Below are positions 20,039 to 59,861 of a stretch of 64,000 bases of DNA, one piece after another. The notes beneath the pieces were generated by a model that worked only from the letters and a program-made list of their open reading frames with translations, did no database searches and had not been told where the DNA came from. A program made the position numbers and the translations under genes. The stretch's first letter is position 1. Each line of letters starts with the position of its first letter. Origin of the DNA: Nemertoderma westbladi (lineage: Eukaryota; Animalia; Xenacoelomorpha); contig JAUCBJ010001656.1 of the NCBI GenBank assembly GCA_032718475.1, forward strand, positions 1 to 64,000, written 5' to 3'.

Positions 20039-22853
20039 CACGGGTGATAACTAAATTAATTATAAACTCTTGATATAACAGGTGTTACAGCCCACGGGTG
20101 ATAACTAAATTAATTATAAACTCTTGATATAACAGGTGTTACAGCCCACAGGTGATAACTAAATTAATTTTGAACTCTTGATATAACAGGTGTTACAGCC
20201 CACGGGTGATAACTAAATTGATTATAAACTCTTGATATAACAGGTGTTACAGCCCACGGGTGATAACTAAATTAATTTTAAACTCTTGATATAACAGGTG
20301 TTACAGCCCACGGGTGATAACTAAATTAATTATAAACTCTTGATATAACAGGTGTTACAGCCCACAGGTGATAACTAAATTAATTTTAAACTCATGATAT
20401 AACAGGTGTTACAGCCCACGGGTGATAACTAAATTAATTATAAACTCTTGATATAACAGGTGTTACAGCCCACAGGTGATAACTAAATTAATTTTAAACT
20501 CTTGATATAACAGGTGTTACAGCCCACGGGTGATAACTAAATTAATTTTAAACTCTTGATATAACAGGTGTTACAGCCCACGGGTGATAACTAAATTAAT
20601 TTTAAACTCTTGATATAACACGTGTTACAGCCCACGGGTGATAACTAAATTGATTATAAACTCTTGATATAACAGGTGTTACAGCCCACAGGTGATAACT
20701 AAATTAATTTTAAACTCTTGATATAACAGGTGTTACAGCCCACGGGTGATAACTAAATTAATTTTAAACTCTTGATATAACAGGTGTTACAGCCCACGGG
20801 TGATAACTAAATTAATTATAAACTCTTGATATAACAGGTGTTACTGCCCACAGGTGATAACTAAATTAATTTTAAACTCTTGATATAACAGGTGTTACAG
20901 CCCACGGGTGATAACTAAATTAATTTTAAACTCTTGATATAACAGGTGTTACAGCCCACGGGTGATAACTAAATTAATTTTAAACTCTTGATATAACAGG
21001 TGTTCAGCCCACGGGTGATAACTAAATTAATTTTAAACTCTTGATATAACAGGTGTTACAGTCCACGGGTGATAACTAAATTAATTTTAAACTCTTGATA
21101 TAACAGGTGTTACAGCCCACGGGTGATAACTAAATTAATTTTAAACTCTTGATATAACAGGTGTTACAGTCCACGGGTGATAACTAAATTAATTATAAAC
21201 TCTTGATATAACAGGTGTTACAGCCCACAGGTGATAACTAAATTAATTTTAAACTCTTGATATAACAGGTGTTACAGCCCACGGGTGATAACTAAATTAA
21301 TTTTAAACTCTTGATATAACAGGTGTTACAGCCCACGGGTGATAACTAAATTAATTTTAAACTCTTGATATAACAGGTGTTCAGCCCACGGGTGATAACT
21401 AAATTAATTTTAAACTCTTGATATAACAGGTGTTACAGTCCACGGGTGATAACTAAATTAATTTTAAACTCTTGATATAACAGGTGTTACAGCCCACGGG
21501 TGATAACTAAATTAATTTTAAACTCTTGATATAACAGGTGTTACAGCCCACGGGTGATAACTAAATTAATTTTAAACTCTTGATATAACACGTGTTACAG
21601 CCCACGGGTGATAACTAAATTAATTTTAAACTCTTGATATAACAGGTGTTCACAGCCCACGGGTGATAACTAAATTAATTTTAAACTCTTGATATAACAG
21701 GTGTTGCAGCCCACGGGTGATAACTAAATTAATTTTAAACTCTTGATATAACAGGTGTTACAGCCCACGGGTGATAACTAAATTAATTATAAACTCTTGA
21801 TATAACAGGTGTTACAGCCCACAGGTGATAACTAAATTAATTTTAAACTCTTGATATAACAGGTGTTACAGCCCACGGGTGATAACTAAATCAATGTTAA
21901 ACTCTTGATATAACACGTGTTACAGCCCACGGGTGATAACTAAATTAATTATAAACTCTTGATATAACAGGTGTTACAGCCCACGGGTGATAACTAAATT
22001 AATTTTAAACTCTTGATATAACAGGTGTTACAGTCCACGGGTGATAACTAAATTAATTTTAAACTCTTGATATAACAGGTGTTACAGCCCACGGGTGATA
22101 ACTAAATCAATGTTAAACTCTTGATATAACACGTGGTACAGCCCACGGGTGATAACTAAATTGATTATAAACTCTTGATATAACAGGTGTTCAGCCCACG
22201 GGTGATAACTAAATTAATTTTAAACTCTTGATATAACAGGTGTTACAGCCCACGGGTGATAACTAAATCAATGTTAAACTCTTGATATAACACGTGTTAC
22301 AGCCCACGGGTGATAACTAAATTGATTATAAACTCTTGATATAACAGGTGTTCAGCCCACGGGTGATAGCTTAATTAATTTTAAACTCTTGATATAACAG
22401 GTGTTACAGCCCACGGGTGATAACTAAATTAATTATAAACTCTTGATATAACAGGTGTTACAGCCCACGGGTGATAACTAAATTAATTTTAAACTCTTGA
22501 TATAACAGGTGTTACAGCCCACGGGTGATAACTAAATTAATTTTAAACTCTTGATATAACACGTGTTACAGCCCACGGGTGATAACTAAATTGATTATAA
22601 ACTCTTGATATAACAGGTGTTACAGCCCACAGGTGATAACTAAATTAATTTTAAACTCTTGATATAACAGGTGTTACAGCCCACGGGTGATAACTAAATT
22701 AATTTTAAACTCTTGATATAACAGGTGTTACAGCCCACGGGTGATAACTAAATTAATTATAAACTCTTGATATAACAGGTGTTACTGCCCACAGGTGATA
22801 ACTAAATTAATTTTAAACTCTTGATATAACAGGTGTTACAGCCCACGGGTGAT
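20039..22853 (+). repeat. 54-bp tandem array (~52 copies) spanning the acceptor site of filamin exon B
   Basis: Unit = aactaaattaattttaaactcttgatataacAG plus the first 21 nt of exon B (GTGTTACAGCCCACGGGTGAT); the last copy runs into the real exon. Confidence 0.95.
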
Positions 22854-22973
22854 CTCGCAGGGCCTTTTGTTGAGAAGATAACGCGACCGCGTCACGCTGC
22901 CAGCGCAACATCTGTTGGATCCAGTTGCGAACTAGCGATAAAACTAGCAGATACTAGTCCTTACGATCTAGTG
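22833..22973 (+). CDS. FLN: Filamin exon B (start of Ig20-equivalent), 47 codons; missed by the ORF track
   Basis: tataacag|GTG...CTA GTG|gtaagt; VLQPTGDLAGPFVEKITRPRHAASATSVGSSCELAIKLADTSPYDLV aligns with filamin ESITRRRRAPSVANVGSHCDLSLKIP; phase 0/0. Confidence 0.9.
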
Positions 22974-24786
22974 GTAAGTTATACAGCTAGCACATACTAC
23001 TCCTTATGATCCAGTGGTAAGTTATAAAACTAGCAGATACTATTCTTTATGATCCAGTGGTAAGATATAAGGCTAGCAAATACTAGTCCTTATGATCCAG
23101 TGGTAAGTTATAAAACTAGCAAATACTAGTCCTTATGATCCAGTGGTAAGTTATAAAACTAGCAGAGTCCTTATGATCCAGTGGTAAGTTATAAAACTAG
23201 CAGATACTATTCTTTATGATCCAGTGGTAAGTTATAAGGCTAGCAAATACTAGTCCTTATGATCCAGTGGTAAGTTATAAAGCTAGCATATACTAGTCCT
23301 TATGATCCAGTGGTAAAAGTAAAATTATAGTTATAAGGTAAGTTATAAGGCTAGCAGATGCTAGTCCTTTTGATCCAGTGGTAAGTTATAAAGCTAGCAA
23401 ATACTAGTCCTTATGATCCAGTGGTAAGTTATAAAGCTAGCAGATACTAGTTCTTATGATCCAGTGGTAAGTTATAAGGCTAGCAGATGCTAGTCCTTTT
23501 GATTCCGTGGTAAGTTATAAAGCTAGCAAATACTAGTCCTTATGATCCAGTGGTAAGTTATAAAGCTAGCAGATACTATTCTTTATGATCCAGTGGTAAG
23601 TTATAAAGCTAGCAGATGCTAGTCCTTTTGATCCAGTGGTAAGTTATAAAGCTAGCAAATACTAGTCCTTATGATCCAGTGGTAAGTTATAAAGCTAGCA
23701 GATGCTATTCTTTATGATCCAGTGGTAAGTTATAAAGCTAGCAAATACTAGTCCTTATGATCCAGTGGTAAGTTATAAAGCTAGCAGATACTAATCTTTA
23801 TGATCCAGTGGTAAGTTATGAAGCTAGCAAATACTAGTCCTTATGATCCAGTGGTAAGTTATAAAGCTAGCAAATACTAGTCCTTATGATCCAGTGATAA
23901 GTTATAAAACTAGCAGAGTCCTTATGATCCAGTGGTAGGTTATAAAGCTAGCAGATACTAGTCCTTATGATCCAGTGGTAAGTTATAAAACTAGCAGAGT
24001 CCTTATGATCCAGTGGTAAGTTATAAAGTTAGCAGATTCCTTATGATCCAGTGGTAAGTTATAAAGCTAGCAGAGTCCTTATGATCCAGTGGTAAGTTAT
24101 AAAGCTAGCAAATACTAGTCCTTATGATCCAGTGGTAAGTTATAAAGCTAGCAGATACTATTCTTTATGATCCAGTGGTAAGTTATAAAGCTAGCAAATA
24201 CTAGTCCTTATGATCCAGTGGTAAGTTATAAAACTAGCAGAGTCCTTATGATCCAGTGGTAAGTTATAAAGCTAGCAGATACTATTCTTTATTATCCAGT
24301 GGTAAGTTATAAAGCTAGCAAATACTAGTCCTTATGATCCAGTGGTAAGTTATAAAGCTAGCAGATACTATTCTTTATGATCCAGTGGTAAGTTATAAAG
24401 CTAGCAAATACTAGTCCTTATGATCCAGTGGTAAGTTATAAAGCTATCAAATACTAGTCCTTATGATCCAGTGGTAAGTTATAAAACTAGCAGAGTCCTT
24501 ATGATCCAGTGGTAAGTTATAAAGCTAGCAGATACTATTCTTTATGATCCAGTGGTAAGTTATAAAGCTAACAAATACTAGTCCTTATGATCCAGTGGTA
24601 AGTTATAAAACTAGCAGAGCCCTTATGATCCAGTGGTAAGTTATAAAGCTAGCAGATACTATTCTTTATGATCCAGTGGTAAGTTATAAAGCTAGCAAAT
24701 ACTAGTCCTTATTATCCAGTGGTAAGTTATAAAACTAGCAGAGTCCTTATGATCCAGTGGTAAGTTATAAAGCTAGCATATACTAG
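22938..24786 (+). repeat. ~43-bp tandem array (~44 copies) spanning the donor site of exon B
   Basis: Unit ataaagctagcagatactagtccttatgatccagtgGTAAGTt = last ~36 nt of exon B plus the donor; 38-bp deletion variants interspersed. Confidence 0.95.
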
Positions 24787-24849
24787 CGGATAATGGCTAG
24801 ATGCTAGCAGATACTGTTTTATATTGTTGTCGTTACTTTATTTCCCCCC

Positions 24850-59555: not shown

Positions 59556-59617
59556 GTAAAGGAATCCTATTGGTTGTCGCTAGGTAACTATACGTGACGC
59601 CCTTGACAGTTCATACT

Positions 59618-59763
59618 CCTCGGTTATATATATCGACCTAAAAAAGGCATTTGACACCCTCGACCACTCTATTCTATTACATAATCTCTCGTGCTACGGG
59701 ATTCGGGGTTCTCCCCATTCACTTTCTGCGGACTACCTTTCTGACCGGACCCAGTTTGTTTCA
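59618..59763 (+). pseudogene. Short CR1-type reverse transcriptase fragment in the last intron
   Basis: Reads YIDLKKAFDTLDHSILLHNLSCYGIRG...DYLSDRTQFVS. Confidence 0.8.
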
Positions 59764-59768
59764 GATGC

Positions 59769-59861
59769 ATGTTTGTAAGTAACGCTCTCTATTGGTTGTA
59801 TGTTTGTAAGTAACGCTCTCTATTGGTTGTTTGTTTGTAGGCAACGCAATGCTATTGGTTG
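59769..59861 (+). repeat. 31-bp repeat (3 copies) spanning the acceptor site of exon H
   Basis: atgtttgtaagtaacgctctctattggttgt x2, then ttgtttgtag|gcaacgcaatgctattggttgg. Confidence 0.8.

What the first reader, a model, noticed from the sequence alone, without database searches (positions are those of the whole stretch)
20039..59861. Filamin splice junctions repeatedly seed tandem arrays (junction-spanning satellites)
Seen: at least 7 of the 15 junctions in view have an array whose unit contains the splice site and adjacent exon sequence. These are exon B acceptor (54 bp x ~52), B donor (43 bp x ~44), C donor (20 bp x ~231), D acceptor (28 bp x ~3), D donor (20 bp x ~22), E donor (44 bp x ~20) and H acceptor (31 bp x 3). 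The units are unrelated to each other, so each arose independently in place, and each extends only into the intron. Inference: either a mutational process is focused on exon/intron boundaries, or repeat birth is very frequent and only expansions that splice out survive. Either way this is a route to intron gigantism distinct from transposon insertion.
Basis: partly seen in the sequence, partly recalled or inferred. Interest (0 to 1): 0.88.

Follow-up and report, generated by a model that had tools for sequence, protein, structure and literature searches.

The report
Splice-junction 'mirage' repeats in filamin introns
In an animal's filamin gene, short pieces that straddle seven exon edges are repeated head-to-tail (3 to 231 times) inside the introns, yet the one assembled transcript uses the splice signal next to the exon each time; this is a large example of a repeat type already known from lancelets and humans, and it likely builds up because such copies are harmless and the introns were probably short when the copies arose.

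Summary
Eight filamin exons form one 586-codon frame, and all seven arrays sit where stated. Five pass both junction tests; D donor and E donor pass one each. A spliced contig uses the exon-proximal site at all seven: three junctions directly, four by an exact 832-nt length match. Short-read contigs of two samples hold the exon-B units as repeats, so these are not an assembly artefact.

This is a known kind: amphioxus 'mirages' and the human F7 and CBS minisatellites. The scan has noted it in at least seven other genomes.

A mutational focus on junctions is not shown. Enrichment is huge against today's intron lengths (P 2e-12) but weak once arrays are collapsed and transposons removed (7 seen, 3.1 expected, P 0.013), and absent if introns were 100 bp or shorter. 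Transposons supply 53% of intron bases, junction arrays 25%, other arrays 20%.

One notable detail: intron C-D, at an ancient position, is all junction copies except 5 of 4,672 bases, so the repeats may now be needed for its splicing (untested).

The parts
15306..15478 (+). Filamin exon A (first exon in view); no array at either junction
   Evidence: its 3' end is the loose end of the spliced contig upstream of exon B
15914..20008 (.). 46-bp x ~89 array, intron A-B, not junction-spanning; ends 30 bp before the B-acceptor array
20039..22853 (+). B-acceptor array, 54 bp x 52 (33 intron + 21 exon bases); 45 decoys identical to the used acceptor 7-mer; functional copy equals the majority unit
   Evidence: 84-nt contigs in runs X1, X2, X3
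22833..22973 (+). Filamin exon B, 141 nt; last acceptor and first donor used in the spliced contig
22938..24786 (+). B-donor array, 43 bp x 44 (36 exon + 7 intron bases); 38 identical decoy donors
   Evidence: variant units in DNA contigs
24850..44018 (+). BEL/Pao LTR retrotransposon, 19.2 kb, 2.19-kb LTRs with 13 mismatches and 4 gap positions, 5-bp target duplication; fills 91% of intron B-C
   Evidence: Pfam Peptidase_A17, DUF1759, DUF5641; LTR alignment
44021..44111 (.). 47-bp x ~2 pyrimidine-tract repeat ending 11 bp before the C acceptor; a partial further copy lies before the LTR at about 24815-24849
   Evidence: partial copy seen by eye, not found by its fuzzy search
44123..44504 (+). 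Filamin exon C, 382 nt
44489..49108 (+). C-donor array, 20 bp x 231 (16 exon + 4 intron bases); 136 identical decoy donor 9-mers; functional copy equals the majority unit
49109..49113 (.). The only 5 non-array bases of intron C-D; the two arrays meet over a short shared motif
49114..49191 (+). D-acceptor array, 28 bp x 2.8 (13 intron + 15 exon bases); the only branch-point-like motifs within 60 nt of the acceptor lie in exon-derived parts of the copies
49177..49452 (+). Filamin exon D, 276 nt
49453..49902 (+). D-donor array, 20 bp x 22, degenerate: about two units align with the last 40 nt of exon D; decoys lack the donor
49912..54195 (.). 32-bp x 134 array, intron D-E, not junction-spanning
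54238..54336 (.). 30-bp x 3.3 array ending 20 bp before the E acceptor, not junction-spanning
54357..54530 (+). Filamin exon E, 174 nt
54524..57623 (+). E-donor array, 44 bp (7 exon bases), ~18 copies to 55333 and ~5 at 57385-57623, split by a LINE (about 55334-57384) with a 12-bp target duplication
   Evidence: (RVT_1)
57788..58006 (+). Filamin exon F; no array at either junction
59346..59555 (+). Filamin exon G; no array at either junction
59769..59861 (+). H-acceptor array, 31 bp x 3, diverged; no decoy identical to the used acceptor
   Evidence: DNA contigs of X1 and X3 break at 59798/59801
59841..60028 (+). Filamin last coding exon H, to the stop codon

Best explanation
Seven splice junctions of this filamin gene are repeated as minisatellites inside the introns, the assembled transcript uses the copy next to the exon body each time, and the arrays likely arose as ordinary short tandem duplications in formerly short introns that survived because they splice out. 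Steps. (1) Shown: each unit is a local copy of its own junction. (2) Shown for one contig: first donor and last acceptor are used, so all extra copies are intronic. (3) Inferred from F7 work: selection of the exon-proximal site (scanning or exon definition) makes such duplications neutral, whereas wholly exonic ones are removed. (4) Inferred: the genome makes and amplifies minisatellites at a high rate everywhere, and in introns of about 100-200 bp a 20-54 bp duplication often overlaps a junction. (5) Inferred: the exon-embedded copy cannot be deleted, so junction arrays can outlast the intron interior, which turns over by deletion and transposon insertion.
For: Units match their own exon end best and nothing else in the window. 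Spliced contig of run X4: A-B and B-C joints seen as loose ends equal to the model, F-G and G-H as GT..AG skips, and exactly 832 nt between B and F = C+D+E; decoy use could only lengthen it. Reading through the four donors, or from the upstream B decoy, meets a stop within 11 codons; the D and H acceptor periods are not multiples of three. Only 930 of 42,960 intron bases are neither array nor transposon; collapsed introns are 22-544 bp, mean 173, and then 3.1 of 11 arrays are expected at junctions by chance. Four of 11 arrays in the gene are not junction-spanning, and arrays also occur inside transposon sequence. Introns C-D (21 loci), E-F (5), F-G (1), G-H (1) and, within one codon, D-E (2) lie at positions shared with other animals, so they predate the arrays. 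Same anatomy and normal splicing reported for amphioxus Adh3, globins, TnC, PGBD5 and human F7.
Against: 7 of 11 is still above the 3.1 expected on collapsed introns (P 0.013; 0.054 if only 6 are counted), and well above it if the introns were 300 bp or more (P 0.00075). Collapsed length is not ancestral length: C-D collapses to 22 bp, so interior was lost and the true starting lengths were probably larger, which makes the null too lenient. Orthologous introns in other animals have median 424 bp, though these are distant lineages. All four non-junction arrays also lie within 30 bp of a junction or junction array. Splicing evidence is one contig from one sample, and contigs drop rare forms.
Confidence: 0.6

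Rival explanations
1. Duplications are born preferentially at exon-intron boundaries (for example through transcription- or splicing-linked breaks, R-loops or chromatin edges), on top of the survival filter.
For: Residual excess on collapsed introns (P 0.013) and stronger excess for longer starting introns; non-junction arrays hug junction zones; repeated reports in amphioxus genes.
Against: One window chosen for being striking; excess vanishes at 100 bp or less (P 0.14-0.57); longer survival of exon-anchored arrays gives the same pattern without any birth bias; no mechanism tested here.
Confidence: 0.22
2. The arrays are functional: decoy splice sites serve regulated alternative or recursive splicing, or the arrays are now required as spacer and branch-point donors.
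For: 45, 38, 136 and 16 decoys identical to the used site at B acc, B don, C don, E don. Intron C-D has 5 non-array bases, collapses to 22 bp, and its candidate branch motifs are exon-derived copies.
Against: The spliced contig shows no decoy use; decoy use gives stops or frameshifts; D-donor and H-acceptor decoys have decayed; units are unrelated. Requirement, if real, applies to one intron and to a few copies only.
Confidence: 0.08
3. The arrays created or moved the introns (intron gain or sliding by tandem duplication).
For: Positions A-B (codon 57, phase 0) and B-C (104, phase 0) are in none of 127 introns called in other animals, and exon B carries arrays on both sides. Two of five window-only insertions lie at array junctions: 3 residues at the B acceptor, 2 at the D donor.
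Against: Four array-bearing introns are at old positions. The insertion clustering is not significant (P 0.07). The 7 intronic bases of the B-donor unit are a canonical donor unlike the start of exon C, so that intron existed before the duplication.
Confidence: 0.06
4. Assembly artefact: arrays produced or inflated by the assembler.
For: Depth of the 54-bp loop contig is about 6x (X1) and 12-16x (X3) that of unique contigs, against 26x expected from the window's modal words.
Against: 84-nt contigs (54+30, one full loop) of the B-acceptor unit in two samples; several variant B-donor units, including an irregular 20-base insert also present in the window; contig breaks at the H duplicate. Units are diverged and a LINE with target duplication sits inside the E array. 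The tool warns that depth is no copy number.
Confidence: 0.04

Closest known systems
Amphioxus 'mirage' minisatellites (Adh3, globins BflGb6/BflGb9, troponin C, PGBD5); PMC3087553 section 16 read whole, PMC3902484 passages read; the original Adh3 paper (PMC117041) is not held
   Same: Tandem copies of exon-intron boundaries on donor and acceptor side, several per gene, units of 10-160 bp, decoy GT/AG kept in many copies, normal splicing reported, length variation between haplotypes.
   Different: Copy numbers here reach 231 and 4.6 kb (3-7 for the globin and PGBD5 cases; Adh3 numbers not seen). One intron is made wholly of two such arrays. The organism is unplaced: long branch in my tree, no close relative found, no amphioxus row available.
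Human F7 intron 7 37-bp VNTR; PMC1557585 abstract and Discussion read
   Same: First unit spans the exon-intron boundary; identical downstream donors stay silent; the most upstream donor is used.
   Different: 5-9 copies at one donor; mechanism tested there by mutagenesis, not tested here; here also acceptor-side arrays.
Human CBS 31-bp VNTR c.1444_1467+7(16_21); PMC2630376 passages read
   Same: By its nomenclature 24 exon + 7 intron bases, 16-21 copies, polymorphic; very like the 36+7 B-donor unit.
   Different: Single junction; splicing effects not seen in the passages I read.
Satellite-filled gigantic introns of Drosophila Y genes; PMC6508621 search listing only
   Same: Introns enlarged by tandem repeats and not only by transposons.
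   Different: Megabase scale there; here 0.3-21 kb, locus-specific units copied from the gene's own junctions.

Membership tests
Mirage / junction-spanning minisatellite | Repeat unit contains the splice site plus adjacent exon sequence of the same gene | tested here: met
   5 of 7 pass both tests, D donor and E donor one each
Mirage / junction-spanning minisatellite | Head-to-tail copies, minisatellite-size unit, terminal copy is the real junction | tested here: met
   Periods 20-54 bp, 3-231 copies; terminal copy used
Mirage / junction-spanning minisatellite | Normal splicing kept despite decoy sites | tested here: met
   One spliced contig, one sample; B acc, B don, H acc direct, C don, D acc, D don, E don by the 832-nt length; rare forms not visible
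Mirage / junction-spanning minisatellite | Locus-specific units, not a dispersed family | tested here: inconclusive
   No shared 14-mers elsewhere in the window; genome not held
Mirage / junction-spanning minisatellite | Copy-number instability between alleles or cells | tested here: inconclusive
   Loop-contig depth ratios differ between two samples (about 6x and 12-16x) but depth is not copy number
Mirage / junction-spanning minisatellite | Host is a cephalochordate (taxon of the original name) | tested here: inconclusive
   Tree without amphioxus rows leaves the window unplaced on a long branch; best identities 53-54% over the region, 57-69% for exon H
Filamin (animal, C-terminal Ig-like repeats) | Pfam Filamin repeats and colinear homology to filamin C-termini | tested here: met
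   PF00630; about 53% identity over 585 aa to vertebrate filamins
Introns gained by tandem duplication | Intron absent in outgroups and made of duplicated exon sequence on both sides of an AG/GT | tested here: not met
   C-D, D-E, E-F, G-H positions are shared with other animals; for A-B and B-C the position is unshared but the intronic part of the units is not exon-like
Intron gigantism (satellite-filled megabase introns) | Introns of hundreds of kb to Mb | tested here: not met
   285-21,149 bp

The most novel reading that the evidence does not exclude
In this lineage introns are rebuilt from their edges: exon-anchored arrays cannot be lost while the interior is deleted, until an ancient intron (C-D, shared with 21 loci of other animals) consists only of copied exon ends. 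Its length and branch point then come from duplicated coding sequence, so the repeats have become indispensable: a neutral ratchet that locks minisatellites into genes, with occasional in-frame slips adding residues at the junction.
Probability: 0.25. Interest if true: 0.6.

Novelty: new member of a known kind. Interest (0 to 1): 0.32.

Why it matters
The kind is known, but this gene is an unusually dense natural test of splice-site choice: up to 136 identical decoy donors and 45 decoy acceptors are ignored in the assembled transcript, which extends the first-donor rule shown for human F7 to hundreds of copies and to acceptors. It also warns that enrichment of repeats at junctions must be judged against pre-expansion intron lengths. 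If intron C-D really depends on its exon-derived copies, it would be a clean case of repeats made essential without any new function.

Tried and rejected
No whole genome is held, so the genome-wide test could not be run. No listed run is on record as RNA; X4 is labelled 'DNA?' but its contig lacks the introns, and I treat it as spliced RNA; a retrocopy is not excluded. All runs are contigs, no raw or long reads. DNA contigs did not cover exon B itself; the tool says such a hole proves nothing. X5 holds only the LINE part of the stretch and was dropped. Run X1/X2 may be the window's own sample. Taxon placement failed: exon G search found nothing among 83 candidates, exon H gave only 57-69% matches, both limited to proteins up to 2000 aa; the quick tree left the window on a long branch; the representative search was still queued when I stopped and its result was not seen. 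A degenerate array at the F donor was considered and rejected (score 8, threshold 15). Intron sliding of the widespread codon-96 intron to codon 104 through the B-donor array was considered and rejected: both sides of position 96 inside the unit are conserved coding sequence. In one search, 8 of 127 intron calls were dropped as unsure before the control count and duplicates were merged to 85; many loci come from similar animals and a few chains may match paralogous repeats. Baseline scores of 26-28 in the local alignments are self-overlap and were not used. Pfam gave no useful name for the element at about 11000-14960 or the 63-bp array. Paper searches for a genome-wide study of junction-spanning arrays returned 0 papers; some searches returned only the single-gene cases cited. 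PMC117041 and PMC1783408 are not held. PMC2812944 (outline and section 6 read) reports repeats at exon-intron boundaries in human segmental duplications but no enrichment test in what I read. No supplements were read; those of PMC3087553 and PMC3902484 hold the mirage alignments and could refine the copy-number comparison.
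Full report
Gene. The window holds the 3' part of an animal filamin gene on the + strand. Eight exons (A 15306-15478 to H 59841-60028) join through seven GT..AG introns of 285-21,149 bp into one frame of 586 codons and a stop. Exon C and D frames match Pfam Filamin, and the product is about 53% identical over 585 residues to vertebrate filamins. The organism could not be placed: no close relative turned up and a quick tree without amphioxus, echinoderm or cnidarian rows that I could name left it on a long branch. 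No genome is held.

Observation. An ungapped match through the junction passes at 6 of 15 junctions, at 0 of 138 exon-interior GT/AG sites, and at 1 of 170 junctions in 85 filamin introns of other animals; the last control is biased low because contigs break at arrays. A gapped match of the intronic unit to exon ends picks the array's own exon, with 0 of 60 shuffles reaching it, for six arrays including the D donor; the E donor, with only 7 exon bases, is not significant by this test. So five arrays pass both tests and two pass one. Units are unrelated and have no copies elsewhere in the window, apart from the second piece of the E array. At B acceptor and C donor the functional copy equals the majority unit, which suggests recent amplification; at B, D and E donors it differs at 4-5 positions. 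Four more arrays in these introns do not span junctions (46x89, 32x134, 47x~2-3, 30x3.3).

Are they real? Short-read contigs of runs X1 and X2 (one sample) and X3 (another study) hold an 84-base contig of the 54-bp unit, the length of one full loop for 31-letter words, and several variant B-donor units, one with an irregular insert also present in the window. Contigs of X1 and X3 break at the 31-bp duplicate. Depth ratios (about 6x and 12-16x) are below the 26x expected from the window, so lengths are unconfirmed and may vary; the tool warns that depth is not copy number.

Splicing. Run X4 has a 2,055-base contig that skips introns F-G and G-H at GT..AG and covers exon B exactly, with loose ends equal to the end of exon A and the start of exon C. 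Between B and F it has 832 bases, the sum of C, D and E; any decoy use would lengthen it. The exon-proximal site is therefore used at all seven junctions, three seen directly and four by length, despite 45, 38, 136, 2 and 16 identical decoys at B acceptor, B donor, C donor, D acceptor and E donor. This is one contig from one sample and cannot exclude rare decoy use. Reading through the donors or from the upstream B decoy meets stops within 11 codons.

Is it more than chance? Of 42,960 intron bases, 52.6% are transposon (a 19.2-kb BEL/Pao element, a LINE inside the E array, two LINE pieces; boundaries of the LINE pieces set by eye), 25.2% junction arrays, 20.0% other arrays and 2.2% unique. I dropped seeds of the 11 observed unit lengths at random, discarding wholly exonic ones. 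With today's lengths 0.11 junction arrays are expected (P 2e-12 for 7). With arrays collapsed and transposons removed (mean 173 bp) 3.1 are expected (P 0.013 for 7, 0.054 for 6). With uniform introns of 60, 100, 200 and 300 bp, P is 0.57, 0.14, 0.007 and 0.00075. The answer hangs on the unknown starting length, and the window was selected for being striking. A modest excess remains possible; longer survival of exon-anchored arrays would give it without any birth bias (inference).

Intron age. In filamin loci of other animals, introns were called at the C-D position in 21 loci, E-F in 5, F-G and G-H in 1 each, and within one codon of D-E in 2; A-B and B-C positions were in none of 127 calls (loci are not independent). 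Four array-bearing introns thus predate their arrays. Window-only residues occur at the B acceptor (3) and D donor (2), 2 of 5 such blocks, P 0.07: a hint of small in-frame slips, no more.

Intron C-D. It is 4,672 bp, of which 5 are not array; the C-donor and D-acceptor arrays meet over a short shared motif, and collapsing both gives 22 bp. The orthologous intron is 74-2,802 bp elsewhere. The only branch-point-like motifs within 60 nt of the acceptor, at -19 and -47, lie in exon-derived parts of the copies (loose pattern, recalled consensus). I infer that the old interior was deleted and that some copies are now needed; this is untested.

Mechanism. Most likely (0.6): frequent short tandem duplications, amplified as ordinary minisatellites, in formerly short introns; those across a junction are neutral because the exon-proximal site is chosen. 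For donors this choice was shown by mutagenesis in human F7 (PMC1557585, abstract and Discussion). The amplification mechanism (slippage, unequal exchange) is textbook knowledge, not tested here. Rivals: birth bias at junctions (0.22), function or dependence (0.08), intron gain or sliding (0.06), artefact (0.04).

Known kind. Amphioxus 'mirages' are tandem repeats spanning exon-intron boundaries in Adh3, globins, troponin C and PGBD5, unstable in length and reported not to disturb splicing (PMC3087553 section 16; PMC3902484 passages). Human F7 and CBS carry donor-side cases. The scan's own notes list nine such findings in at least seven other genomes, several with the same short-intron reading; these are unchecked notes and not evidence, and my reading was entered before I saw them. 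I found no genome-wide enrichment study, within an open-access library only.

Verdict. Real, well supported, a large new member of a known kind. Interest 0.32; the all-repeat intron C-D is the part worth following.

Noticed in passing
window 58672-58843: Perfect palindrome with 86-bp arms inside the high-copy LINE piece of intron F-G; other genomic copies of the LINE skip about 58661-58756, so it looks like a local fold-back duplication.
   Followed up: partly
window 24850-44018: Young BEL/Pao LTR element (LTRs about 99% identical, 2575-aa ORF) inserted into the pyrimidine-tract repeat about 100 bp upstream of the C acceptor; carries a further 1259-aa ORF at 37555-41334 with no Pfam match.
   Followed up: partly
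window 11094-11856: 59-bp x 13 array at 99% identity inside the coding end of a minus-strand non-LTR-like element (about 11000-14960; class recalled from a zinc-finger-like motif, no Pfam hit): a recent array born away from any junction.
   Followed up: partly
window 1-10900: Five blocks of 146-bp repeats recurring with shared flanks in a higher-order unit of about 2 kb; probably a tandemly repeated mobile element in the intron upstream of exon A.
   Followed up: no
window 60259-60843 and 61896-64000: 14-bp x 42 and 63-bp x 33+ arrays downstream of the stop codon; Pfam hits to an open frame of the 63-bp array have no passing stretch and look spurious.
   Followed up: partly
filamin model codons 50, 96, 151, 185: Introns seen in 10-24 loci of other animals are absent from this gene, while two positions (57, 104) are seen only here: the lineage has turned over intron positions.
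   Followed up: partly
L060 acceptor at model codon 50: The one control junction scoring above threshold: a 25-base exon-side match 83 bp upstream, possibly a single old junction duplication in another animal.
   Followed up: no
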